Positions 4,610 through 24,672 of a DNA stretch of 24,908 nt are shown piece by piece. The notes below the pieces were generated by a model. That model ran no database searches and was not told the origin of the DNA. It saw only the letters and a program-made list of their open reading frames with translations. The translations under genes were made by a program, and so were the position numbers. Source of the stretch: a virus (lineage: Duplodnaviria > Heunggongvirae > Uroviricota > Caudoviricetes); the IMG/VR virus record IMGVR_UViG_2579778993_000003. One strand, 5' to 3'. How positions within the stretch are numbered: the first letter of the stretch is position 1; every line of letters begins with the position of its first letter.

Positions 4610-4616
4610 GCCCACA

Positions 4617-4850
4617 AGAAAACCCCTCCGGAGAGGGGCTAAAGCCGCGTATCTGTATCATCATGCACATGGTGCCGGGTGCCTCCCGGTGAGTTCAGCC
4701 CGGTGCCACTAAACCCGCGTCATTCTCGTTTTGATAATCAGAGATTATACCGTCACCAGTCGCCCCTCCGCTCAGGGGGATTCACCATGCGAAATTTTTT
4801 TAACAAATGCCCAGTCTGACAGGCAACTGTCAACTTACTGAATTGTGAGC
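4617..4850. repeat. Direct repeat unit A (~230 bp), degenerate copy of unit B, rich in palindromic hairpins
   Basis: Shares ordered conserved blocks with 5105-5318: aaaa(c/g)ccctccggagaggggct, gcatggtgccgggtgcctcccggtga, cccctccgc.cagggggattcaccatgc, ttttaacaaa and cagtcaac...ctgaattgtgag. The first block is a perfect 6-bp hairpin (CCCCTC cgga GAGGGG, 4623-4638) preceded by an A-run, so it is a minus-strand terminator. Confidence 0.6.
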
Positions 4851-4903: not shown

Positions 4904-5104
4904 CGGATGGGCCTGGAAGGATAGCGGTCATGTGATGCCGGTTTCCCGGTAACTCAGCACCGGTATCTGAGTCAACGTTTTCTCTACTGGGTCATTTCCG
5001 ATACGCCCTGCCTGCTGACAGGCTTTCATCACATCTGAAAATATAGCACCCTGACTGATACTGTAGTACCTAAGGTTCCAGAAACTGTGATGTATCCGGC
5101 ACAG

Positions 5105-5318
5105 AAAAGCCCCTCCGGAGAGGGGCTGGAGAGTGGCGCTATGTGCCATTGCATGGTGCCGGGTGCCTCCCGGTGAATTCAGTACCAGCACCTGAATCCG
5201 CGATTATCCCATATACCTACTCGCTGATTGCCCCTCCGCACAGGGGGATTCACCATGCCAGTTTCTTTTAACAAACTCCCCGCAAACCAGACAACAGTCA
5301 ACCGCCTGAATTGTGAGA
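5105..5318. repeat. Direct repeat unit B (~215 bp), degenerate copy of unit A
   Basis: Same conserved blocks as unit A, including the CCCCTC cgga GAGGGG hairpin (5110-5125) and the 8-bp inverted pair gcatggtg / caccatgc bracketing a variable ~110-nt core. Confidence 0.6.
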
Positions 5319-5362: not shown

Positions 5363-5439
5363 TGGCGCGTTGTACTGGATTCGAACCAGTGACCGATTGC
5401 TTAGAAGGCAATTGCTCTGTCCGGCTGAGCTAACAACGC
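5363..5439 (-). tRNA. tRNA-Arg (anticodon UCU)
   Basis: Manual cloverleaf on the minus strand: acceptor GCGTTGT/ACAACGC, D-stem GCTC/GAGC, anticodon stem ATTGC/GCAAT with loop CTTCTAA, T-arm ACTGG-TTCGAAT-CCAGT, discriminator G and encoded CCA. All stems perfect; 77 nt. Confidence 0.9.
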
Positions 5440-5452
5440 AGGATACAGATAA

Positions 5453-5529
5453 TGGACCGCCTTCGGGGACCCGAACTCCGCGCAACCAGCTTCGAAGGCT
5501 GGCGCTCTTTCCTGATGAGCTAATGGCGG
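5453..5529 (-). tRNA. Putative tRNA-Arg (anticodon UCG), slightly degenerate
   Basis: Cloverleaf fits with D-stem GCTC/GAGC, anticodon stem CCAGC/GCTGG with loop CTTCGAA, and encoded CCA. There is one mismatch in the acceptor stem (A-A), one in the T-stem (A-C), and an atypical T-loop TTCGGGT, so it may be a diverged or pseudo tRNA. Confidence 0.55.
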
Positions 5530-5536
5530 TATGTGA

Positions 5537-5612
5537 TGGTGGCCCTTGCTGGATTTGAACCAGCGACCTGGCGATTATGAGTCGCTCGCTCTCACCACTG
5601 AGCTAAAGGGCC
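5537..5612 (-). tRNA. tRNA with CAU anticodon (Met by anticodon; resembles the Ile2/lysidine-type ileX/ileZ class)
   Basis: Minus-strand sequence GGCCCTTTAGCTCAGTGGTGAGAGCGAGCGACTCATAATCGCCAGGTCGCTGGTTCAAATCCAGCAAGGGCCACCA folds as a 76-nt cloverleaf with one A-C mismatch in the anticodon stem. It closely resembles E. coli ileX as I recall it. Confidence 0.85.
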
Positions 5613-10231: not shown

Positions 10232-12496
10232 TTATACGGAAACTGGCACACGAGCAGGCAATGGATAGTGAGCCCAGTTATTAGCATTTAAAGCTCTTAC
10301 GCCATCAGCATAAACTTGTGTTTTTCCATCTAATGATTTTAAAGTTACTACAATAGTTACAGGTAAAGGCTCCATTAAGGCCGGTTCATTCGCTCTCAAC
10401 GTTGTTTTAGCTTGAAGAGCCCAGTTACCCGAAGTAATTCCTTTATTAAATGCCTTGCGATGAATTTTTACTGGTGACCACTTTCCACCATGCTCAATTT
10501 GAGCTCTCTCATATCCAGATTGACCGTTTTCTCCTTCCATAGGTACTTTTCCTTTTATAGTATTATTCTCAATTAAGCCAAAACTTAGCTCTACGTTCGC
10601 GCGAACATATTCACTGCCGGCATTAGGGTTCAGTGGTGGTGCATATGCAGCAGTAATTACAATCTCACCTTTAAATTTTCCATTTTGAATAAGTGCCGAT
10701 GGTATGGGATAGTTTTCCTTTCTCCACCTCACCCCAGGAACCAAGAATGTTTGGAAAATCAGAGTAAACCTATCATCACTATCATATAAGGTCTCAATAA
10801 CCTCATTAGGAATTCCCGCTCCCAAATAGCGTCTTTCACTTGGCGAGTAATCAGGAGAAGATAATTGAGCGGAATGAATTAATAATGCTTTAATCAATGA
10901 TGGTGAAACATTAAAGTCTGAATTAGTGGCTATTCTCTGCCATGTATGCGCAGCTAAACTTGCCACAATTGGAGCAGCAAAACTAGTACCAAAATTAGAG
11001 CAAAGCCTATTATCTGGCCCTACGACCTTTAAACTGCTTGCTCCTACATTCCAAGGTCTATGAACCCCACCGCCAGCATGGATTATATCTGGCTTTGGAG
11101 TAAATACAGGCCCAGGGCCACGACGAGTATATGGTGTCGGTGTTCCAATTTCACTTAAAGCATCATTAGCTTCCATATGAGAAACTGAACCAACTGTTAG
11201 TGCTCGGACTGACTCTCCAGGAGAGGAAATTAAATCAGCACCTCCAAGCGGATCAGGATTTGGCCATGTACGTATAGGTTCATCTACATAATTACCTGCA
11301 GCAACTACAAACAAAATACCAAATTTATCGCTGAGCCGATCTAACTCCATCGCAAAATCACTAAACATCTGCTCATTACATGGTCCGCCTCCCAAAGATA
11401 AATTCCAGACTTTTATATCTGGTCTTTTATTTACAGCATCTGCTAGCCTCAGAATTAAATCTGATATATAAGATCCATTTTCATCTAAAGCACAAACATC
11501 ATGGATTTTAGATTTTGTATCAGGAATCCATGGATGATTGTCATTTAAAAAATGAGCGCCTGATATCAATGAAGACACCATAGTCCCATGTTCATAACTC
11601 GTATCAGGAGGAATTACGTATGTTTCCCTACTCACTACCCAAGGAGTAATTGTTGCCGCGATGGGGCTTACCCCAGTGTCAAATACAGCAACAATGGGTA
11701 ATTCTTCTGATGGTACGGGAAAGCTATTTGTTTCAATGCCAACAGAATCACTTACACTAACCGGGAATGCTGAATATTTTGGTTCTGGAATTAACGTTCT
11801 TATACCCGGGTAATCAATGAGAATGTCTAATATATATCTATCATTTGGGGATAAATCCATTATCCTTAATAAGGGAAGACCACATTTTGGTCTAATCTCA
11901 TCATATTTAACTCCGTGTTGTTCTAATATAGAAATAACGTTTTCATAGTTGTTGTAAGTTGCATCTTCACCTGTGTACTCAAATAGTCGTACAAGGATGT
12001 TTGATGATTCAAACAAACCATCAGTGCCTCCTGGAACCTTCCTATTCTCATCCCAAGGTTCAATGCGCTCAATCGCGCTTAGATTAGCCAAAATCGCTTT
12101 AATATTCCGATGTAAAATGACTGACTCTAATACGTCAAAACAGCCGGCATGAGCAGCAACCAACATTTCATCTATTTTGGCATGACCGGCATTTTGCAAT
12201 CCAGCCTCTTGAGCAATTTTGTTCGGCCTATGCGTTTTGGCTATTCCCTGGTCTCTTAATTTGAAAACCAAAGTACCCAAGCTTCCAGGGTACTCTGAAA
12301 GTTTGGATTCTAAATAATGTTTACTGGTTGTTAAATTTCTTACTAGCCCTTGTCTATATTCGGCTGTTACATCAACCAATACCTTTGCCCCACCGCCAGC
12401 GTTTACTATTGCACCCAAGTCACTACTGGAAAAAGGGATTCTTAACATTGGGTTTGTAACTTTTGCGTTACTAAACTGTGTACCCCTTCTGCTCAT
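10232..12496 (-). CDS. Subtilisin-like serine protease (peptidase S8) with extra N- and C-terminal domains, 754 aa; protease component of an IetAS-like two-gene system
   Basis: Catalytic residues in subtilisin order: Asp in VAVFDTGVS, His in YEHGTMVSS, oxyanion Asn in VVAAGNY, Ser in GTSFAAPIVAS. ATG at 12494-12496 with a GGAG/AGGAG SD inside the 3' end of the upstream ATPase gene (26-bp overlap). A+T-rich relative to neighbouring prophage genes. Confidence 0.9.
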   Translation of the reverse strand: MSRRGTQFSNAKVTNPMLRIPFSSSDLGAIVNAGGGAKVLVDVTAEYRQGLVRNLTTSKHYLESKLSEYPGSLGTLVFKLRDQGIAKTHRPNKIAQEAGLQNAGHAKIDEMLVAAHAGCFDVLESVILHRNIKAILANLSAIERIEPWDENRKVPGGTDGLFESSNILVRLFEYTGEDATYNNYENVISILEQHGVKYDEIRPKCGLPLLRIMDLSPNDRYILDILIDYPGIRTLIPEPKYSAFPVSVSDSVGIETNSFPVPSEELPIVAVFDTGVSPIAATITPWVVSRETYVIPPDTSYEHGTMVSSLISGAHFLNDNHPWIPDTKSKIHDVCALDENGSYISDLILRLADAVNKRPDIKVWNLSLGGGPCNEQMFSDFAMELDRLSDKFGILFVVAAGNYVDEPIRTWPNPDPLGGADLISSPGESVRALTVGSVSHMEANDALSEIGTPTPYTRRGPGPVFTPKPDIIHAGGGVHRPWNVGASSLKVVGPDNRLCSNFGTSFAAPIVASLAAHTWQRIATNSDFNVSPSLIKALLIHSAQLSSPDYSPSERRYLGAGIPNEVIETLYDSDDRFTLIFQTFLVPGVRWRKENYPIPSALIQNGKFKGEIVITAAYAPPLNPNAGSEYVRANVELSFGLIENNTIKGKVPMEGENGQSGYERAQIEHGGKWSPVKIHRKAFNKGITSGNWALQAKTTLRANEPALMEPLPVTIVVTLKSLDGKTQVYADGVRALNANNWAHYPLPARVPVSV

Positions 12497-13625
12497 ATGC
12501 TCCTGACTCCTTCAGAATGTTTGAAATTACTCTTGATGTAAGTTTGTACAAATTAGCAAGAACTCTGATAGAAAATAATTTTTTATCTTTAGAACGTAAC
12601 CAACGAATTTCATCTTCGTAAGTGCTTAAATTTACACCTTCCATAAGCGATTGCGCAAGATACAAACGCCTATACAATTTATGGTGATTTATCACACTTG
12701 CACCTTCAATAACTGCATCCCTACGTGCATCCAAGCTCACCTGTTCAATTATTGCTCCGGATAATCCCTCCGATTTTCTTGATAAATCACTTAAATCTAG
12801 ATCGCTACATATCATATTCTTTAAACGATTTTTCCAAATTAACTCTCTCTGATGTATGTCAGGCAGAGGCATTGGAATTCTGAAGCTAAATCGCCTCCAG
12901 ATTGCAGGATCCAGAAGTTGCTCATGGTTAGTTGAGGCAATAATTACCGTATCCTCTGATGCCGCATCCATATTCTGCAATAGTGAAATGACAACTCGCT
13001 GAAGCTCACCTATATCTCTCTCATTACCTCTTGCTCCAGCTAAAGCATCAAATTCGTCTAAAAAAAGCACTGATGGCCTCTGCATTACATAATCGAAAAC
13101 CTGTCTAAGATTTTTGCTGGTTTGTCCCAATAAACTACTAATCAAAGTATCGCAACGCACTGTAAGAAGTGGAAAATCTAAGCGGGTAGCGATGTACTTA
13201 GATAACATAGTCTTACCTGTTCCTGGCTTTCCATACACGAGCATACGACTCGGCAATGCTGCATCAGCTTTAACAAACTCATCATAACGTTGAACATTAG
13301 TGATAAACTCTTCAACACGGGTACTGATTGCTGCAGGCAGAAAAATCTCTGAACTGTCTAATTTAGGATAACTGACATCAACAGTGTTGAGTCGACTATC
13401 AATATCTACCGGTAATGAGCCCAGAGATATCCCACCTCCAGCCCTTTGAGCTCCTGCCAACGCCTGGGGAGCTCTAAGCAACCTTTCTCTTATCATTCTG
13501 GCTTGCTTGACCTCCCCTTTTTGTTCGAGCTTATCTGCCAGCAACCCAGCATAATTACTAGCCATCGAAGCATTTGCCTTTGTTGCACCTTCAATGATTT
13601 TTAACACTTCTGATAAATAATCCAT
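12471..13625 (-). CDS. Classic AAA-family ATPase, 384 aa; ATPase component of an IetAS-like two-gene system
   Basis: Walker A GKPGTGKT, Walker B VLFLDEFD, and a second-region-of-homology-like segment ASTNHEQLLDPAIWRRFSF with sensor Asn and Arg fingers. ATG at 13623-13625 preceded by GGGAG with a 6-nt spacer, after an AT-rich ~190-bp leader. Confidence 0.9.
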   Translation of the reverse strand: MDYLSEVLKIIEGATKANASMASNYAGLLADKLEQKGEVKQARMIRERLLRAPQALAGAQRAGGGISLGSLPVDIDSRLNTVDVSYPKLDSSEIFLPAAISTRVEEFITNVQRYDEFVKADAALPSRMLVYGKPGTGKTMLSKYIATRLDFPLLTVRCDTLISSLLGQTSKNLRQVFDYVMQRPSVLFLDEFDALAGARGNERDIGELQRVVISLLQNMDAASEDTVIIASTNHEQLLDPAIWRRFSFRIPMPLPDIHQRELIWKNRLKNMICSDLDLSDLSRKSEGLSGAIIEQVSLDARRDAVIEGASVINHHKLYRRLYLAQSLMEGVNLSTYEDEIRWLRSKDKKLFSIRVLANLYKLTSRVISNILKESGAYEQKGYTV

Positions 13626-17578: not shown

Positions 17579-17998
17579 ATGGACAAATATGAATTTAGAC
17601 GACAGCAACTCATCAAAATTCGTGATGAGAAATGCGATGGTAAAGCGGTTAACGTGGCCAGAAAGATCGGGCGCGAGCCTTCTTATGTATCAAGAATGTT
17701 GTACCCAGAGGGGAAAAAGGGAAAAAAACGGATCGCTGATGATATGGTGGAGATTATCGAAGAGTCCTTTGGGTTACCCCGGGGATGGATGGATGGTATC
17801 GTTTCATCATCAACGAACACAGCCTCCAGTTATGAAACAAGGGTTCTAACGCCACGACAACGTATTTTTTTAGATCTCTTAGACGAACTGCCAGAAAGTG
17901 AAGCGGATAAATTATTAAAAACTCTTGAAGAGAAAAAACAGTATTACAATATGATCTACGAAGAAATCCGTAAAAAGAAAGCACAAAACGCATCATAG
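17579..17998 (+). CDS. Prophage repressor (RacR-like HTH protein), 139 aa
   Basis: HTH-like segment AVNVARKIGREPSYVSRML. No SD upstream of the ATG, consistent with a leaderless mRNA. Flanked on both sides by related palindromic sites. Confidence 0.65.
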   Translation: MDKYEFRRQQLIKIRDEKCDGKAVNVARKIGREPSYVSRMLYPEGKKGKKRIADDMVEIIEESFGLPRGWMDGIVSSSTNTASSYETRVLTPRQRIFLDLLDELPESEADKLLKTLEEKKQYYNMIYEEIRKKKAQNAS

Positions 17999-18040: not shown

Positions 18041-18077
18041 TACCCATGGGTATTTACTTTTTAAATACCTATGGGTA
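18041..18077. promoter_or_regulatory. Second operator cluster: perfect palindrome TACCCATGGGTA plus near-palindrome ATACCTATGGGTAT
   Basis: Sites at 18041-18052 and 18064-18077 share the half-site TACCCA with the sites at 17506-17543. They lie between the repressor gene and the next plus-strand operon. Confidence 0.5.
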
Positions 18078-19099: not shown

Positions 19100-19460
19100 T
19101 CTCCACGGGTCAGGTGGAGTGCGTGCGCCGGACACGGGTGAACATCCGGCACTGACAGTTTACTGAAAGGATATGTCCCTGAAAAGTCAGGGCATAACGC
19201 GAAAGCGCACGGCGAAATTGGTCTCTCTGTACGGTGTCGTTAAATTTAGTTCGACCGTGCGCTTCCGGTTGTGGCAATCCGCGAAATGGTGCGGCGGTAA
19301 GTATGGCGGGGGTATTCCTTCCCCCGTTGAGGACACCGGGTTGTCAGGTTGACCATACGCTTAAGTGACAACCCCGCTGCAACGCCCTCTGTTATCAATT
19401 TTCTGGTGACGTTTGGCGGTATCAGTTTTACTCCGTGACTGCTCTGCCGCCCTTTTTAAA
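19100..19460. other. GC-rich, hairpin-dense non-coding region (candidate structured RNA or DNA site)
   Basis: No convincing ORF. Several perfect stems: GCCGGA/TCCGGC nested inside GTCAG/CTGAC (19111-19156), CCCTGA aaag TCAGGG (~19177-19194), GCGCACGG...CCGTGCGC enclosing ~45 nt (~19205-19262), CGGGGG tattcctt CCCCCG (~19307-19326), and GGGTTGTCA-19 nt-TGACAACCC (~19338-19374). Confidence 0.3.
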
Positions 19461-19626
19461 GTGAATTTTGTGATGTGGTGAATGCGGCTGAGCGCACGCG
19501 GAACAGTTAAAACCAAAAACAGTGTTATGGGTGGATTCTCTGTATCCGGCGTTAATTGTTAACTGGTTAACGTCACCTGGAGGCACCAGGCACCGCATCA
19601 CAAAATTCATTGTTGAGGACGCGATA

Positions 19627-19815
19627 ATGGAAACGTTATTACCAAACGTTAATACGTCTGAAGGTTGTTTTGAAATTGGTGTCACTATCAGTAACCCAGT
19701 ATTTACTGAAGATGCCATTAACAAGAGAAAACACGAACGGGAGCTATTAAATAAAATATGCATTCTTTCAATGCTGGCCCGTTTACGTCCGATACAAAAA
19801 GGATGCTGGCAATGA
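19627..19815 (+). CDS. Hypothetical small protein (62 aa)
   Basis: ATG at 19627 preceded by GAGGA with a 7-nt spacer. Product METLLPNVNTSEGCFEIGVTISNPVFTEDAINKRKHERELLNKICILSMLARLRPIQKGCWQ. It occupies the position of small kil-type genes in Rac-like prophages. Confidence 0.35.
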   Translation: METLLPNVNTSEGCFEIGVTISNPVFTEDAINKRKHERELLNKICILSMLARLRPIQKGCWQ

Positions 19816-20003
19816 ATACAGCATTTGCACTTGTTCTGACAGTTTTTCTTGTTTCCGGAGAGCCAGTTGATATTGCAGTCAGTGTTCACAGGACAATGCA
19901 GGAGTGTGTGACTGCAGCAACCGAACAGAAAATTCCCGGTAACTGTTACCCGGTCGATAAAGTTATTCACCAGGATAATAACGAAATCCCGGCAGGTCTT
20001 TAA
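19812..20003 (+). CDS. Hypothetical small secreted protein (63 aa) with N-terminal signal-peptide-like segment
   Basis: ATG at 19812 preceded by AAGGA. Product MNTAFALVLTVFLVSGEPVDIAVSVHRTMQECVTAATEQKIPGNCYPVDKVIHQDNNEIPAGL has a hydrophobic N-terminus and two Cys in the mature part, with no lipobox. Confidence 0.4.
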   Translation: MNTAFALVLTVFLVSGEPVDIAVSVHRTMQECVTAATEQKIPGNCYPVDKVIHQDNNEIPAGL

Positions 20004-20095: not shown

Positions 20096-22567
20096 ATGAG
20101 TAAAGTCTTTATTTGCGCCGCCATTCCGGACGAACAGGCAATAAAGGAAGAAGGTGCCGTCGCTGTAGCCACTGCCATTGAAGCCGGTGATGAACGTCGC
20201 GCCCGCGCAAAATTTCACTGGCAATTCCTGGAACATTATCCGGCTGCTCAGGACTGCGCTTATAAATTTCTTGTCTGCGAGGATAAACCCGGTATACCCC
20301 GCCCTGCCCTCGATTCCTGGGATGCTGAATATATGCAGGAAAACCGCTGGGATGAGGAGTCTGCTTCCTTTGTCCCGGTTGAGACTGAATCCGATCCGAT
20401 GAACGTCACTTTTGACAAGCTGGCCCCTGAAGTACAGAACGCTGTCATGGTTAAGTTCGACACATGTGAAAACATCACCGTTGATATGGTTATTAGCGCA
20501 CAGGAATTGTTGCAGGAAGACATGGCAACATTCGACGGCCATATCGTTGAAGCGTTGATGAAAATGCCAGAAGTTAACGCCATGTATCCGGAGCTTAAGC
20601 TGCATGCCATCGGGTGGGTTAAGCATAAATGTAAGCCTGGTGCCAAATGGCCCGAAATTCAGGCAGAGATGCGCATCTGGAAAAAACGTCGCGAAGGTGA
20701 ACGCAAGGAAACCGGAAAATACACGTCTGTTGTTGATCTCGCCCGCGCCAGAACCAATCAACAGCACAGTGAAAATTCAACAGGAAAAATCAGCCCGGTC
20801 ATTGCTGCCATTCATCGCGAATACAAGCAGACATGGAAAACACTGGATGACGAACTGGCCTACGCTCTCTGGCCTGGTGATGTGGATGCCGGAAACATTG
20901 ACGGCAGCATCCATCGCTGGGCAAAAAATGAAGTTATCGACAACGACCGCGAAGACTGGAAGCGTATCTCGGCATCAATGCGCAAACAGCCTGATGCCCT
21001 TCGCTACGACCGCCAGACTATTTTTGGCCTTGTCCGTGAACGTCCGATCGACATTCACAAAGACCCTGTGGCACTGAACAAATACATTACTGGATACCTG
21101 ACTACAAAGGGCGTGTTTGAAGATGAAGGAAGAAATCAGAGCGCAACTGATACTCTCTCGTCGCCAGTACCAGAAACTGATGCAGTGGAAACGGCAATTC
21201 CGGGCAACGAAAAAACCGAATGCAAAGTGGAAGTCGAACCATCTGTAGAGCGTGAGGGGCCGTTCTACTTCCTCTTCACCGACAAGGATGGCGAAAAATA
21301 CGGTCGCGCAAACAAACTTTCTGGTCTGGAAAAAGCACTAGCCTTGGGAGCTACGGAAATCACAAAAGAGGAATACTTCGCACGTAAAAACGGCACGTAC
21401 TCAGGTTCACAACAAAATACTGGTGCATCTGACACGACCGCACAACCAGAGCCGGTAAAAGTTACCGCTGACGAAGTAAACAAAATTATGCAGGCAGCCA
21501 ATATCAGCCAGCCTGACGCCGATAAGTTGCTTGCTGCCTCTCGCGGAGAATTTGTTGCAGGGATTAGCGACCCGAATGATCCGAAATGGGTAAAGGGGAT
21601 TGAAACCCGCGATTCTGTAAACCAGAACCAGCAAGAATCGGAACAGAACGACCAGAAAGCGGAACAAAACAGCCCAAATACGCAACAAAACGAGCCAGAA
21701 ACGAAACAACCTGAGCCAGTAGCGCAACAGGAACCGGAAAAAGTCTGCACCGCCTGCGGTCAAAGCGGTGGCGGCAACTGCCCTGATTGTGGCGCGGTGA
21801 TGGGTGACGCAACATACCAGGAAACATTCGATGAAGAGAATCAGGTTGAAGTTCAGGAAAATGATCCGAAGGAAATCGAAGGCGCTGAACATCCACACAA
21901 GGAGAATGCTGGTAGCGCTCAGGATCACGCCAGCGATAGTGAAACTGGCGAGACGGCAGATCCCTTAATTGCGATGAACGGTCATCACGTTATCACATCC
22001 ACCAGCAGGACGTGTGACCATCTAATGATCGACCTTGAAACCATGGGAAAAAATCCTGATGCCCCGATTATCTCAATAGGTGCAATATTTTTCGATCCGC
22101 AAACCGGAGATATGGGACCGGAATTTAGTAAGACTATCGATCTGGAAACTGCTGGCGGAGTCATTGATCGTGACGTCATTAAAAGGTGGCTGAAGCAATC
22201 ACGTGAAGCGCAGTCTGCCATTATGACCGATGAAATCCCGTTAGATGATGCACTGTTACAATTGCGGGAATTTATCGACGAAAACTCCGGTGAATTTTTT
22301 GTTCAGGTCTGGGGAAATGGAGCCAACTTCGACAACACGATTTTGCGCCGTTCATACGAACGGCAGGGGATCCCCTGCCCGTGGCGTTACTACAACGATC
22401 GCGATGTACGCACAATCGTTGAGCTGGGGAAAGCCATAGACTTCGATGCCAGAACGGCTATTCCATTCGAAGGTGAGCGCCATAATGCACTTGATGACGC
22501 CCGTTACCAGGCAAAATACGTTTCAGTTATCTGGCAAAAACTGATCCCGAATCAGGCTGATTTTTAA
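20096..22567 (+). CDS. Large prophage exonuclease (823 aa) with C-terminal DnaQ-like DEDDh 3'-5' exonuclease domain, Q/E-rich linker and CxxC...CxxC zinc-ribbon-like motif
   Basis: ATG at 20096. C-terminal motifs Exo I ([10 protein letters not shown]), Exo II ([12 protein letters not shown]) and Exo III ([14 protein letters not shown]). Low-complexity linker [41 protein letters not shown] followed by [16 protein letters not shown]. It occupies the recE position of Rac-like prophages, but no recT-like gene follows. Confidence 0.8.
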
Positions 22568-22631: not shown

Positions 22632-22880
22632 ATGGCAAGACTTATTCTGCTCACTGAGTGGGCAAAAGAGGAATTCAGTGAACCGGTCCCAACTCCGAGT
22701 ACGTTAAGTAAATACGCTAAAGCCGGAATGATATTTCCTCTCCCCAAAAAAGTTGGAAGACGCTGGCGAGTGGATCCGCAAGCTCGCTTTGTCGGAATGG
22801 TAAACAAGCCGGAGGTGATCGCCACAGATCACCCTGCTTTGAAGAGGATACTGGAAGATGGCGCGCCCGCGAAAATATAA
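22632..22880 (+). CDS. Excisionase / AlpA-like small DNA-binding protein
   Basis: 82 aa, basic, immediately upstream of and overlapping (23 bp) the integrase gene, the typical xis-int arrangement. Family assignment is by position and size. Confidence 0.55.
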   Translation: MARLILLTEWAKEEFSEPVPTPSTLSKYAKAGMIFPLPKKVGRRWRVDPQARFVGMVNKPEVIATDHPALKRILEDGAPAKI

Positions 22881-23988
22881 AACCAATGTTCCGGGATTAT
22901 CTCCGTATTTTGACAAAAGAAATAACAAAGTTTACTGGCGTTACAGGCATCCCATAACAGGCAAAAATCACGGTCTCGGCAGTATTGACCAGAAACTGGC
23001 AGAAACTATTGCAGCAGAAGCGAACAGCCGTCTTGCCCGGCAGCAAATGGAACAAATGCTCAGTCTGCAGGAGAAAATTATTAGTGATACCGGCGGTTCA
23101 TCAACCGTTACCATTTTTCTGAATAATTACAGAAAAATTCAACAGGAAAGATATGAAAACGGCGAGATCAAACTCAACACGCTGAAACAGAAAGCGGCTC
23201 CTCTCAGGGTATTTGATGAACGTTTTGGCACCAGACCGTTAGATGCCATAACCGTAAAAGATGTGGTATCAGTACTGGAAGAGTACAAGGCCAGAGGACA
23301 TAACAGAATGGGACAAATTTTCAGGAAGGTACTGATCGATGTTTTCCGGGAAGCTCAGCAAACGGGCGATGTCCCGCCAGGCTTTAACCCTGCAGAATCG
23401 GCAAAAAAACCGCAGGTGCGGATATCAAGACAGCGACTGACTTTTGATGAGTGGATGATGATTTATAACGCAGCGGAAAAGGATGGTTACTTTTTACAGC
23501 GCGGTATGCTGCTGGCACTGATGACAGGCCAGCGCCTTTCAGATATTTGCAAAATGCAATTTTCGGATATCCGGGATGGTTATCTTCATGTCGAACAGCA
23601 AAAAACAGGAACCCGGATTGCCATCCCTCTGGCTCTGCGTTGCGATAAATTAAATCTCACCCTGGATGATGTGGTGTCATCCTGCCGCGATTGCGTTCTT
23701 AGTCCGTGGCTATTGCACCACCATCACGCGAAAGGGACAGCTAAGCGCGGCGGGATGGTTAAGCCAGCAACATTAACCGTTGCATTTAAAAAAGCCCGGG
23801 ATTCTGTGGATTACAACTGGCGTGCTAATGGCACCCCTCCCTCTTTCCATGAGCAGAGATCTTTATCAGAGCGATTGTTCAGAGAGCAGGGGGTTGATAC
23901 CAAAATTTTGCTAGGCCATTCGAATCAAAAAATGACCGATATTTACAACGACGCACGCGGTAAGGAATGGAAAAAACTGGTCATTTGA
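22858..23988 (+). CDS. Tyrosine site-specific integrase
   Basis: 376 aa with tyrosine-recombinase boxes: TGQRLSDI (box I Arg), HEQRSL (His-x-x-Arg) and LLGHSNQKMTDIYN (box II with catalytic Tyr). Adjacent to the prophage/host junction beside ompW. Confidence 0.9.
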   Translation: MARPRKYKTNVPGLSPYFDKRNNKVYWRYRHPITGKNHGLGSIDQKLAETIAAEANSRLARQQMEQMLSLQEKIISDTGGSSTVTIFLNNYRKIQQERYENGEIKLNTLKQKAAPLRVFDERFGTRPLDAITVKDVVSVLEEYKARGHNRMGQIFRKVLIDVFREAQQTGDVPPGFNPAESAKKPQVRISRQRLTFDEWMMIYNAAEKDGYFLQRGMLLALMTGQRLSDICKMQFSDIRDGYLHVEQQKTGTRIAIPLALRCDKLNLTLDDVVSSCRDCVLSPWLLHHHHAKGTAKRGGMVKPATLTVAFKKARDSVDYNWRANGTPPSFHEQRSLSERLFREQGVDTKILLGHSNQKMTDIYNDARGKEWKKLVI

Positions 23989-24033: not shown

Positions 24034-24672
24034 TTAAAAACGATATCCTGCGGAGAACATAAACACCCACGGATCCAGTCGTACCGAGTCTTTTACGGTA
24101 GTAACACCAGATTTGTACTTAGCCGTGGTATCGATATCCATGTACCACACTGACATGTTAACCAACCAGTCACGGTTAATCAGATAATCAACCCCCACCT
24201 GCCCGGCAGCTCCCCAGGAATCTTTCAGACTGAGATCGGAAAGCCCTGCCTCTTTGCCATGATCGTTAAATCCATTATCAAAGAAGGTGGTGTAGTTAAT
24301 ACCTGCCCCAACGTAAGGACGGAATTTGCTGCTGGCATCACCAAAATACCACTGCGCCATCAGTGTTGGTGGCAGATGATGAACGGTTGCAATATCGCCG
24401 GTCGCCCGGGTGCCGATTTTATGGCGGAACGGCGTCGCTGCCAGTAATTCCACACCAATGTTGTCGGTCGCCATATAAGTAAACGTAAGGCCCAGTTGCG
24501 TGTTATTGGTCACGCTGAATCCACCCAGACTTCCTAACGTACCACCAGCACCTTCTGTTGGACGTACGGTTGCAGAACCTGCACGCATAAAAAATTCGCC
24601 TGCTTCATGCGCAAAGGCACTGCCAGAGAGAAGAGTTGTTACTGCCAAAGCCGCCACTGTTAATTTTTTCAT
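24034..24672 (-). CDS. ompW: Outer membrane protein W (8-stranded beta-barrel)
   Basis: 212 aa; signal peptide MKKLTVAALAVTTLLSGSAFA followed by HEAGEFFMRAGSATVRPTEG... and a C-terminal ...WVFMFSAGYRF beta-barrel signature. Recognised as E. coli OmpW from memory. Confidence 0.9.
   Translation of the reverse strand: MKKLTVAALAVTTLLSGSAFAHEAGEFFMRAGSATVRPTEGAGGTLGSLGGFSVTNNTQLGLTFTYMATDNIGVELLAATPFRHKIGTRATGDIATVHHLPPTLMAQWYFGDASSKFRPYVGAGINYTTFFDNGFNDHGKEAGLSDLSLKDSWGAAGQVGVDYLINRDWLVNMSVWYMDIDTTAKYKSGVTTVKDSVRLDPWVFMFSAGYRF

What the first reader, a model, noticed from the sequence alone, without database searches (positions are those of the whole stretch)
20096..22567. 823-aa exonuclease at the recE position with a DEDDh 3'-5' domain and no recT partner
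The C-terminal ~220 aa carry clear DnaQ-like Exo I/II/III motifs ([23 protein letters not shown]), preceded by a Q/E-rich low-complexity linker and a CxxC...CxxC motif. The gene sits where Rac-like prophages encode RecE (a 5'-3' exonuclease) with RecT, yet no annealing-protein gene follows (excisionase and integrase come next). It could be a distinct recombination/repair nuclease, or an anti-defence or exclusion nuclease.
Basis: partly seen in the sequence, partly recalled or inferred. Interest (0 to 1): 0.5.

Follow-up and report, generated by a model that had tools for sequence, protein, structure and literature searches.

The report
RecE-like prophage protein with swapped nuclease
This is the intact form of the E. 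coli K-12 pseudogene ydfE: a very common lambdoid-prophage early gene in which the non-catalytic body of the recombination nuclease RecE carries a T4 DexA-like 3'-5' exonuclease instead of RecE's own 5'-3' nuclease. It has no annealing-protein partner and its biological role is untested.

Summary
ORF 20096-22567 (+) encodes 823 aa. Its C-terminal domain is a DEDDh exonuclease (Pfam PF16473, E=3e-63; D646, E648, D746, H796, D801). In front of it lie a CxxC-x7-CxxC motif and an acidic Q/E-rich linker. No RecT, Rad52-like or RecE-nuclease coding sequence exists anywhere in the window.

The gene is not only at the recE position. Residues 262-626 are homologous to K-12 RecE 278-592, and the zinc-ribbon/linker stretch is much the most similar part. 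The homology ends about where RecE's PD-(D/E)XK domain begins, so this is a nuclease-domain swap.

It is the intact ydfE of the dicF-dicB-ydfD operon. It matches in 4714 of 5426 complete E. coli genomes and is full-length in the phage record mEp460_ev081.

The shared N-terminal body forms a narrow mosaic family (247 representatives). Its C-terminal ends are DEDDh, RecE-type nuclease (followed by RecT where checked), a Rad52/Sak-fold annealase, or a small unknown domain. DEDDh versions are always followed directly by excisionase/integrase.

The closest characterised relative is T4 DexA. A different E. coli DexA homologue (EcD) defends against T4. The function here is inferred, not shown. The family is already catalogued and annotated, so interest is moderate.

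The parts
20096..22567 (+). Whole gene: 823-aa intact ydfE-type exonuclease (stop codon included)
   Evidence: ORF list. PHROG 2082 'exonuclease' matched end to end, 1874 bits. 99.9% identical copies annotated 'exonuclease' or '3'-5' exonuclease' in E. coli chromosomes. The K-12 pseudogene ydfE is its IS2-truncated 5' part.
20096..20380 (+). Scaffold bead 1 (aa 1-95): small alpha/beta domain, start of the YdfE-type head
20408..20713 (+). Scaffold bead 2 (aa 105-206): helical domain of the YdfE-type head
   Evidence: AF2 pLDDT 90-97. Conserved among YdfE-head relatives (alignment A2).
20828..21115 (+). Scaffold bead 3 (aa 245-340): helical domain. The similarity to RecE begins here (aa 262).
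   Evidence: AF2 pLDDT 86-97. BLASTP to K-12 RecE 278-592 starts at aa 262. NCBIfam PRK09709 matched only at aa 246-626.
21260..21391 (+). Scaffold bead 4 (aa 389-432): beta-hairpin plus helix mini-domain with the motif GPFYF...GRANK...[13 protein letters not shown]
   Evidence: AF2 pLDDT 94-96. The motif recurs in DEDDh-, nuclease- and annealase-ended relatives.
21524..21592 (+). Conserved motif [22 protein letters not shown] (aa 477-499), shared almost exactly with RecE
   Evidence: BLASTP alignment with RecE. Present in many family members.
21593..22015 (+). Acidic, Q/E/P-rich disordered linker (aa 500-640) containing the zinc-ribbon-like motif
   Evidence: Composition 50-65% QEDNPST. Much the best-conserved stretch of the alignment with RecE. 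dN/dS 0.20-0.35.
21746..21793 (+). CxxC-x7-CxxC zinc-ribbon-like motif (C551, C554, C562, C565)
   Evidence: Positions. Weak Pfam DZR match, E=0.11. The four Cys are conserved in K-12 RecE. The motif is absent from some DEDDh relatives such as P0122.
22016..22564 (+). DexA-like DEDDh 3'-5' exonuclease domain (aa 641-823): catalytic D646, E648 (Exo I), D746 (Exo II), H796, D801 (Exo III)
   Evidence: PF16473 E=3.1e-63. The only solved relative detectable by sequence is the 227-aa 'Exodeoxyribonuclease' of 8KEL/8KEN, E=2.4e-5, which matches T4 DexA. Stand-alone homologue Sb30 of phage ST64B is 57% identical.
19401..20003 (+). Upstream operon partners: DicF sRNA (19401-19452), dicB (19627-19815), ydfD/DUF1482 (reading frame ending at 20003)
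   Evidence: Rfam DicF 76.7 bits. Pfam DicB E=1.7e-37 and DUF1482 E=7.8e-25. Same gene order as K-12 Qin dicF-dicB-ydfD-ydfE.
22632..23988 (+). Downstream genes: excisionase (22632-22880) and lambda-type integrase (22858-23988), then host ompW (24034-24672, minus strand)
   Evidence: Pfam Exc, Arm-DNA-bind_1 and Phage_integrase. Annotation of the near-identical record NZ_AP022177.

Best explanation
The gene is the intact version of the K-12 Qin pseudogene ydfE. It is the last large gene of the early-left (dicF-dicB-ydfD) operon of a Rac/Qin-type lambdoid prophage integrated next to ompW.

The protein is a mosaic of three parts:
1. A non-catalytic scaffold of four small folded domains joined by disordered linkers (aa 1-~500).
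2. A zinc-ribbon-like motif inside an acidic Q/E-rich linker (aa ~500-640).
3. A DexA-like DEDDh exonuclease domain (aa 641-823).

Parts 1 (from aa 262) and 2 are homologous to the non-catalytic body of RecE. Part 3 sits where RecE carries its PD-(D/E)XK 5'-3' nuclease. This much is shown.

The following is inferred:
- The C-terminal domain is an active Mg2+-dependent 3'-5' exonuclease acting mainly on DNA 3' ends, like T4 DexA.
- The scaffold brings it to whatever target or partner the same scaffold brings RecE and Rad52-type annealases to.
- It is made with DicB/YdfD when the prophage is derepressed, not in the quiescent lysogen.
- It works alone in phage DNA-end processing or DNA turnover during lytic growth, not as half of an exonuclease/annealase recombinase.
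For: Domain identity:
- PF16473 at aa 642-813, E=3e-63, with all five DEDDh residues.
- The closest solved relative by sequence is the 8KEL/8KEN exodeoxyribonuclease, which matches T4 DexA, a DNA 3'-5' exonuclease (PMC12153337).

Domain swap:
- BLASTP to K-12 RecE covers only aa 262-626 (RecE 278-592). The zinc-ribbon/linker stretch is much the most similar part, and the match ends about where the RecE nuclease begins (review PMC11611040 places the nuclease domain at 564-866).
- The NCBIfam RecE model is matched only on positions 271-603.
- P0128 is K-12 RecE aa 1-270 (100%) plus linker plus this DEDDh domain (97%).

Operon:
- DicF, dicB and ydfD lie directly upstream, as in Qin.
- There are no more promoter-like sites than chance, and none between ydfD and the gene.

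Family logic:
- The same body carries a PD-(D/E)XK nuclease followed by a RecT-family gene (P0132, E=2e-36).
- The slot is therefore a recombination/DNA-end module.

DEDDh versions stand alone: all six contexts (window, mEp460_ev081, 640R1, P0128, P0251, P0122) run straight into xis/int or int.

Under selection: dN/dS is 0.15-0.35 in all four segments against the mEp460_ev081 copy. The gene is full-length in that phage record and covers >=80% of the query in 3533 of 5426 E. coli genomes.
Against: - No activity, polarity, substrate or expression data exist for this protein. I found no paper on ydfE function.
- The Pfam family is named after an RNA exonuclease, so DNA preference rests on 27% identity to DexA.
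- A 3'-5' exonuclease cannot make the 3' tails that single-strand annealing needs, so its use in a 'recombination slot' is unexplained.
- An E. coli DexA homologue (EcD) acts in defence (PMC12153337), and the neighbouring dicB has exclusion activity according to the literature (my recollection, not checked here). A defence role is therefore a live rival.
- Co-transcription with dicB and repression in lysogens are extrapolated from K-12 Qin (preprint PMC11430063), not tested.
Confidence: 0.5

Rival explanations
1. It is a defence or superinfection-exclusion nuclease of the HREX type. The DexA-like domain would destroy incoming phage DNA, for example the 5hmC-modified DNA of T-even phages, to the benefit of the lysogen.
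For: - The E. coli DexA homologue EcD cleaves 5hmC DNA but not unmodified DNA, and protects against T4 even from leaky expression (PMC12153337).
- That paper reports Escherichia as 38% of bacterial DexA homologues and none in K-12. Both fit this family, since ydfE is truncated in K-12.
- The gene is prophage-borne and present in up to 10 places per genome.
- Another defence system (IetAS) sits in the same prophage.
Against: - EcD is a different, short stand-alone protein (primers give MIDTET... and ...TIPETYD), not this domain.
- In the alignment with DexA, the 5hmC-recognition residue D169 falls in a DexA-only insertion that is absent here. W152 aligns with Tyr766. The tetramer residue D90, which is Ala in EcD, aligns with Asp718.
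- The gene lies downstream of the toxic genes dicB and ydfD in an operon that is repressed in K-12 lysogens (PMC11430063).
- The 640-aa scaffold is shared with RecE and annealase fusions.
- PADLOC gives only a generic DEDDh match, E=1.5e-5.
Confidence: 0.22
2. It is still a recombination exonuclease. It would cooperate in trans with the host RecA/RecFOR pathway or with an annealase from another prophage (such as Rac RecT), trimming 3' flaps or non-homologous 3' tails.
For: - It occupies the recombination slot and keeps the RecE body.
- T4 DexA takes part in intron homing, a recombination-dependent process (PMC12153337).
- E. coli genomes carry a median of 2 related places, so prophages co-reside.
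Against: - None of the six DEDDh-type contexts has an annealase, whereas the PD-(D/E)XK-type context examined has RecT.
- The wrong polarity for resection makes it at best an accessory.
Confidence: 0.15
3. It is an RNA 3'-5' exonuclease. It would act on host or phage RNA, for example degrading host transcripts, maturing operon RNAs such as DicF, or restricting RNA phages as the TONDO/ISG20-like enzymes do.
For: - PF16473 is named after the M. tuberculosis exoribonuclease Rv2179c, and NCBI names many copies '3'-5' exoribonuclease'.
- Prophage or plasmid DEDDh enzymes with auxiliary domains defend against MS2 and Qbeta (preprint PMC13344964).
Against: - By sequence the only solved relative found is the DNA exonuclease DexA. 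Rv2179c is not detected even at E<=10.
- TONDOs were chosen as ISG20-like proteins under 500 aa and are said to be distinct from other defence DEDDh domains.
- No RNA-binding domain was detected.
Confidence: 0.1
4. It is a decaying remnant with no current function, merely hitch-hiking in defective prophages.
For: - K-12 carries only an IS2-truncated copy.
- Truncated and internally deleted copies exist. P0121 (527 aa) lacks Exo I, and there are many fragments.
Against: - The 823-codon frame is intact, with all catalytic residues.
- dN/dS is 0.13-0.36 in every segment where it could be estimated.
- It is full-length in the phage record mEp460_ev081 and in 3533 genomes.
Confidence: 0.03

Closest known systems
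RecE (exodeoxyribonuclease VIII) of the Rac prophage, E. coli K-12
   Same: - Same slot: last large gene of the early-left operon before xis/int.
- Homologous central body and zinc-ribbon/acidic linker: aa 262-626 against RecE 278-592, 39% identical overall, with the linker/zinc-ribbon stretch much the most similar.
- The N-terminal part is of unknown function in both (PMC11611040).
   Different: - RecE's PD-(D/E)XK 5'-3' dsDNA nuclease domain is absent and replaced by a DEDDh domain.
- The head (aa 1-245) is the YdfE type, not the RecE type PF06630.
- No recT follows.
- The NCBIfam RecE equivalog score is 280 against a cutoff of 1269.
T4 DexA (exonuclease A; PDB 8KEL/8KEN) and its E. coli homologue EcD ('HREX')
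   Same: Same Pfam family and the same DEDDh catalytic residues. DexA is the only solved structure detectable by sequence (E=2.4e-5). It is phage-encoded.
   Different: - Only 27% identical to DexA.
- Lacks the DexA insertions, including the one carrying D169.
- Fused to a 640-aa scaffold, whereas DexA (227 aa) and EcD stand alone.
- EcD has different termini.
- The substrate and any 5hmC specificity are untested.
Stand-alone lambdoid-phage DEDDh exonucleases, e.g. Sb30 of Salmonella phage ST64B
   Same: 57% identical over the nuclease domain, and the same position immediately upstream of xis/int.
   Different: Sb30 is 189 aa with no scaffold. Its function is also uncharacterised.
YdfE/RecE-scaffold fusions to a Rad52/Sak-fold annealase (PHROG 2489/7838; e.g. 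P0129)
   Same: Same YdfE_N/YdfE_C body and the same genomic slot.
Lambda Exo/Beta-type two-component ('SynExo') recombinases
   Same: Encoded in the early-left operon of a lambdoid phage, between the immunity region and xis/int.
   Different: There is no 5'-3' exonuclease and no annealase here, so it does not meet the definition.

Membership tests
DEDDh (DnaQ-like) exonucleases, Pfam PF16473 Rv2179c-like / DexA family | Profile match above the curated threshold | tested here: met
   213.1 bits against a cutoff of 27, E=3.1e-63, aa 642-813 covering profile positions 2-177 of 177.
DEDDh (DnaQ-like) exonucleases, Pfam PF16473 Rv2179c-like / DexA family | Exo I (D-x-E), Exo II (D) and Exo III (H-x4-D) acidic and His residues | tested here: met
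   D646 and E648 in DLETMG, D746 in GNGANFD, H796 and D801 in HNALDD. D646, E648 and D746 align with DexA D7, E9 and D119. The H-x4-D motif aligns with a 4-residue ambiguity, because DexA has two overlapping H-x4-D motifs.
DEDDh (DnaQ-like) exonucleases, Pfam PF16473 Rv2179c-like / DexA family | Metal-dependent 3'-5' exonuclease activity | not testable with these tools
   Needs purified protein.
RecE / exodeoxyribonuclease VIII (NCBIfam NF007259 equivalog) | Full-length match above the equivalog cutoff | tested here: not met
   279.8 bits against a cutoff of 1269. Only profile positions 271-603 of 877 are matched.
RecE / exodeoxyribonuclease VIII (NCBIfam NF007259 equivalog) | C-terminal PD-(D/E)XK 5'-3' nuclease domain | tested here: not met
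   The BLASTP match to RecE stops at RecE residue 592. tblastn of RecE 596-866 and of a second RecE-type nuclease against the window gives a best E of 0.58.
RecE / exodeoxyribonuclease VIII (NCBIfam NF007259 equivalog) | Shared central region, [11 protein letters not shown] motif and CxxC...CxxC zinc-ribbon linker | tested here: met
   Aa 262-626 against RecE 278-592, E=2e-62.
RecE / exodeoxyribonuclease VIII (NCBIfam NF007259 equivalog) | Adjacent recT (annealase) gene | tested here: not met
   xis and int follow. There is no RecT similarity in the window.
YdfE family (Pfam PF27430 YdfE_N + PF27432 YdfE_C) | Carries both YdfE domains and is orthologous to K-12 ydfE | tested here: met
   Cluster representatives 90-98% identical to the protein carry PF27430 and PF27432 (family names). 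The K-12 dicB-ydfD-ydfE DNA matches the query window:19600-22567 over its first 1263 bases at 96% identity, then is cut by IS2. The two models are not in the local Pfam copy, so this is indirect.
HREX (5hmC-recognising DexA/EcD exonucleases, PMC12153337) | Residues equivalent to DexA W152 and D169 (5hmC recognition) | tested here: inconclusive
   In the MAFFT alignment W152 aligns with Tyr766, with a Trp at 763 nearby. D169 lies in a DexA-only insertion with no counterpart here. The alignment is at 27% identity and uncertain in this region.
HREX (5hmC-recognising DexA/EcD exonucleases, PMC12153337) | Loss of the tetramer residue D90 (Ala in EcD), giving the dimer-only, host-safe form | tested here: not met
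   DexA D90 aligns with Asp718 and S87 with Pro715.
HREX (5hmC-recognising DexA/EcD exonucleases, PMC12153337) | Selective cleavage of 5hmC DNA and protection against T4 | not testable with these tools
   Needs biochemistry and plaque assays.
Two-component phage recombinase (exonuclease + single-strand annealing protein) | A 5'-3' dsDNA exonuclease paired with an SSAP gene | tested here: not met
   The nuclease is DEDDh. There is no SSAP in the window or in five other DEDDh-type contexts.
Known anti-phage defence systems (PADLOC-DB v2) | Match to a defence-system protein model | tested here: inconclusive
   Only the generic 'DEDDh, CRISPR-associated' model matches, E=1.5e-5, 23.7 bits. HREX post-dates that library.

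The most novel reading that the evidence does not exclude
The non-catalytic RecE/YdfE body is a general delivery platform. It would take interchangeable DNA-end effectors (5'-3' nuclease, 3'-5' nuclease, Rad52-type annealase, a small unknown domain) to one common cellular target. The DEDDh version would then be a previously unrecognised, annealase-independent phage DNA-end system, either pro-phage DNA processing or an induced anti-competitor nuclease. Full-length or nearly full-length copies are carried by about two-thirds of complete E. coli genomes. Working out its target would also explain the long-unexplained N-terminal two-thirds of RecE.
Probability: 0.3. Interest if true: 0.6.

Novelty: new variant of a known kind. 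Interest (0 to 1): 0.4.

Why it matters
The N-terminal body of RecE is described as a domain of unknown function, even though full-length RecE is used for linear-linear recombineering (PMC11611040). This gene shows that the same body is reused in nature with a nuclease of opposite polarity and, in relatives, with a Rad52-type annealase. That argues the body has its own function, independent of the effector it carries.

The DEDDh version has a match in 87% of complete E. coli genomes and in the Shiga-toxin-era lambdoid prophage pool, yet it has never been assayed. If it degrades DNA 3' ends during induction, it bears on prophage induction biology and on recombination between co-resident prophages. 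It may also bear on phage-phage competition of the HREX type.

It also flags likely mis-annotation. 'Exodeoxyribonuclease VIII' is applied to DEDDh proteins, and 'exonuclease' is applied to Rad52-like annealase fusions.

Tried and rejected
1. Finding EcD (HREX paper) to measure its identity to this domain. The primers in the supplement give only its ends. An exact-pattern scan of genome contigs for its 5' end returned 14 chance hits in unrelated MAGs and no Escherichia.
4. The search for homologous proteins with the full protein. All 120 listed hits were 90-98% identical Escherichia copies (nearly all E. coli), useful only for prevalence and the precomputed Pfam ids.
5. Promoter and terminator scans. 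Counts do not exceed shuffles, so they give no evidence for or against an own promoter.
6. PADLOC. Only a generic DEDDh hit.
7. Literature searches for ydfE, exoD, and Rv2179c with phage. They found no functional study of this protein.
8. Considered and rejected: that the ORF is a RecE orthologue mislabelled (nuclease domain absent); that a recT lies elsewhere in the window; that the ORF is a pseudogene.
Full report
**1. Observation**

The window holds an ATG-initiated ORF at 20096-22567 (+) of 823 codons, with a GAGG ribosome-binding site 9 nt upstream.
- DLETMG at aa 646-651
- GNGANFD at aa 740-746
- [10 protein letters not shown] at aa 796-805
- CTAC and CPDC at aa 551-554 and 562-565

Aa 481-640 are 50-65% Q/E/D/N/P/S/T. 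Pfam places PF16473 (Rv2179c-like 3'-5' exoribonuclease domain) on aa 642-813 with E=3.1e-63, and gives a weak RNase_T match on the same residues. The only correction is that the nuclease domain is about 180 aa rather than about 220 aa.

**2. Where it sits**

The window is 99.9% identical, across this gene, to chromosomal prophages of E. coli. In the annotated record NZ_AP022177 the region runs as follows:
- lysis genes, Q, RusA, DUF968
- the IetA/IetS defence pair
- replication genes (ydaV-like, O-like), YdaT, and a Cro-like regulator
- a divergent repressor-like gene
- DUF1391, dicB, DUF1482, 'exonuclease', excisionase, integrase
- host ompW

Rfam finds DicF RNA at 19401-19452. Pfam confirms DicB, YdfD (DUF1482), excisionase and a lambda-type integrase. 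The order dicF-dicB-ydfD-X-int is that of the K-12 Qin prophage, where X is the pseudogene ydfE, cut by IS2. K-12 DNA matches the query window:19600-22567 over its first 1263 bases at 96% identity and then runs into IS2. The finding is therefore the intact form of ydfE.

It is extremely common. 4714 of 5426 complete E. coli genomes have a match and 3533 have at least 80% of the gene. The median is 2 places per genome and the maximum is 10. A 94%-identical full-length copy sits in the same gene order in the phage record mEp460_ev081.

**3. Relation to RecE**

BLASTP against K-12 RecE (taken from NC_000913) aligns aa 262-626 with RecE 278-592 (E=2e-62, 39% identity overall). The stretch from LLAASRGEF through the zinc ribbon and acidic linker is much the most similar part, and the alignment ends at RecE 592. 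The review PMC11611040 puts the RecE nuclease domain at residues 564-866 and calls the rest a domain of unknown function.

The NCBIfam RecE equivalog is matched only on profile positions 271-603, at 280 bits against a cutoff of 1269. So the protein keeps the RecE body up to the linker and carries a different nuclease after it.

One natural relative makes the swap explicit. P0128 is K-12 RecE aa 1-270 at 100% identity, plus the linker, plus this DEDDh domain at 97%. It sits in a Rac-like context (KilR, YdaE, SieB) and is followed by an integrase with no recT.

**4. No annealase**

- Pfam and PHROG scans of the other early ORFs give regulators, DUF1391, DicB, YdfD, a Ren-like protein, O-like and DnaC-like replication proteins and an HNH/DUF968 protein, but no RecT, Erf, Rad52 or Sak4 family.
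- tblastn of RecT, a Rad52-like domain and two RecE-type nuclease domains against the six frames of the window gives nothing better than E=0.19.
- The window spans the prophage from the lysis genes to attachment-site-proximal int, so it covers the whole early region.

**5. The family**

An exhaustive HMMER search with aa 1-640 against 1.84 billion cluster representatives finds only 247 proteins at E<=0.001. This is a narrow family.

I classified the 49 representatives of at least 450 aa by BLASTP to reference segments. They form a combinatorial mosaic:
- Heads: two alternatives, the YdfE type or the RecE type (PF06630).
- Middle: shared. It contains the GPFYF...GRANK...EEYxARKNG mini-domain and the [11 protein letters not shown] motif.
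- Linker: an optional zinc-ribbon/acidic linker.
- C-terminal ends:

| C-terminal type | Representatives |
|---|---|
| Rad52-like ('SSAP-like') domain | 16 |
| RecE-type PD-(D/E)XK nuclease | 12 |
| DEDDh | 7 |
| Small domain with the motif QQLTIAAL-GLCANPA | 7 |
| No match to any reference C-terminal domain | 6 |
| RecE::RecT fusion | 1 |

Genomic contexts follow the C-terminal type:
- The PD-(D/E)XK version P0132 is followed, with overlapping stop and start codons, by a RecT-family gene (E=2e-36).
- The Rad52-like version P0129 is flanked by a Gam-like gene and a Gp157-family gene.
- The DEDDh versions run straight into xis/int or int. These are the window, mEp460_ev081, 640R1, P0128, P0251 and P0122.
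- The small-domain version P0125 does the same, at the same ompW site.

**6. The nuclease domain**

The only solved structure detectable by sequence is the 227-aa 'Exodeoxyribonuclease' of 8KEL/8KEN (E=2.4e-5). Its printed residues match T4 DexA as taken from NC_000866.

Alignment with DexA (27% identity) gives these equivalences:
- D646, E648 and D746 align with DexA D7, E9 and D119.
- The H-x4-D motif (H796, D801) corresponds to the DexA Exo III motif, with a 4-residue ambiguity.

Kang et al. (NAR 2025, PMC12153337) report the following:
- A short E. coli homologue, EcD, cuts only 5hmC DNA and protects against T4 ('HREX').

EcD is not this domain. Its primers encode MIDTET... and ...TIPETYD, whereas this protein has MIDLETMG... 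and ...IPNQADF.

The HREX signature residues do not map cleanly:
- DexA D169 lies in an insertion missing here.
- W152 aligns with Tyr766.
- D90, which is Ala in EcD, aligns with Asp718.

Stand-alone versions of this domain occur at the same place in other lambdoid phages. An example is Sb30 of ST64B, which is 57% identical and lies directly before xis/int.

**7. The scaffold**

AF2 on aa 1-510, with a 24-sequence alignment, gives four confidently folded beads separated by disordered linkers (pTM 0.34):
- aa 1-95, alpha/beta
- aa 105-206, helical
- aa 245-340, helical
- aa 389-432, beta-hairpin plus helix

**8. Selection**

Against the mEp460_ev081 copy, dN/dS is 0.26, 0.15, 0.35 and 0.30 for the head, middle, linker and nuclease segments. 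The nuclease domain is 97-98% identical between proteins whose heads are unrelated in sequence (640R1, P0128). That indicates recent modular exchange. The gene is not a decaying remnant, although truncated and internally deleted copies exist (K-12 ydfE; P0121).

**9. Mechanism**

Shown:
- The architecture and the domain swap.
- The operon position.
- The absence of an annealase.
- The family mosaic.
- Purifying selection.

Inferred:
- The C-terminal domain is an active 3'-5' exonuclease preferring DNA, by its kinship to DexA.
- It is expressed with dicF-dicB-ydfD on derepression. This is by analogy with Qin, where DicA represses that operon (preprint PMC11430063). There is no excess of promoter-like sites.
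- The scaffold targets it to the site or partner it shares with RecE and the Rad52-type fusions.
- It acts alone on DNA 3' ends during lytic development.

Rivals:
- An HREX-type exclusion nuclease.
- An accessory recombination nuclease working with annealases in trans.
- An RNA exonuclease. The TONDO/ISG20-like precedent is in PMC13344964.
- A remnant.

I put about 0.5 on the main reading and 0.22 on defence.

**10. Novelty**

The protein family is catalogued and annotated: PHROG 2082, Pfam YdfE_N/YdfE_C plus PF16473, and NCBI '3'-5' exonuclease'. Its nuclease family has a recently characterised member.

In the searchable literature I found none of the following:
- a functional study of ydfE-type proteins
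- a description of the RecE-body/DEDDh swap
- a description of the Rad52-type fusions on the same body

I rate it a new variant of a known kind, of moderate interest.

Noticed in passing
window 10232-13625 (-): An IetA (12471-13625) / IetS (10232-12496) anti-phage ATPase plus S8 protease pair is inserted between the replication genes and the nin-like region of the prophage. PADLOC gives E=9e-143 and 6e-300. The pair is annotated iteA/iteS in the near-identical record.
   Followed up: partly
window 19401-19452 (+): A DicF small RNA (Rfam RF00039, 76.7 bits) lies upstream of dicB. It confirms that the finding lies in a dicBF-type operon.
   Followed up: yes
window 4610-4819 (-), 5097-5287 (-), 5366-5612 (-): Two copies of the sRNA family STnc100 (161 and 136 bits) and three tRNA genes lie in the late-region leader downstream of Q.
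   Followed up: no
[not shown]
   Followed up: partly
L027 5001-7109 (P0125): A prophage at the same ompW integration site carries, in the same slot, a variant whose C-terminus is a ~250-aa domain of unknown function (motif QQLTIAALHGLCANPA) instead of a nuclease or annealase. It has no Pfam hit.
   Followed up: no
P0206 (703 aa): This representative is K-12 RecE aa 1-~520 fused in frame to RecT (97% identical). It looks like a deletion that removed the RecE nuclease domain.
   Followed up: no
P0121 (527 aa): An internally deleted copy of this same protein. Aa 1-368 are joined to the DEDDh domain after its Exo I motif, so it is presumably inactive. This is an example of decay within the family.
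   Followed up: no
window 18041-18077 (+): A 16-bp-stem hairpin followed by a T-rich tail lies directly after the repressor-like gene (17579-17998). It is a likely terminator separating that gene from the DUF1391-dicF-dicB operon.
   Followed up: no
Pfam PF06630 'Exonuc_VIII' on P0122, P0133, P0156: The Pfam family named 'Enterobacterial exodeoxyribonuclease VIII' models the non-catalytic N-terminal head of RecE, not the nuclease. Its presence therefore leads to 'exonuclease VIII' names on proteins that lack the RecE nuclease.
   Followed up: partly
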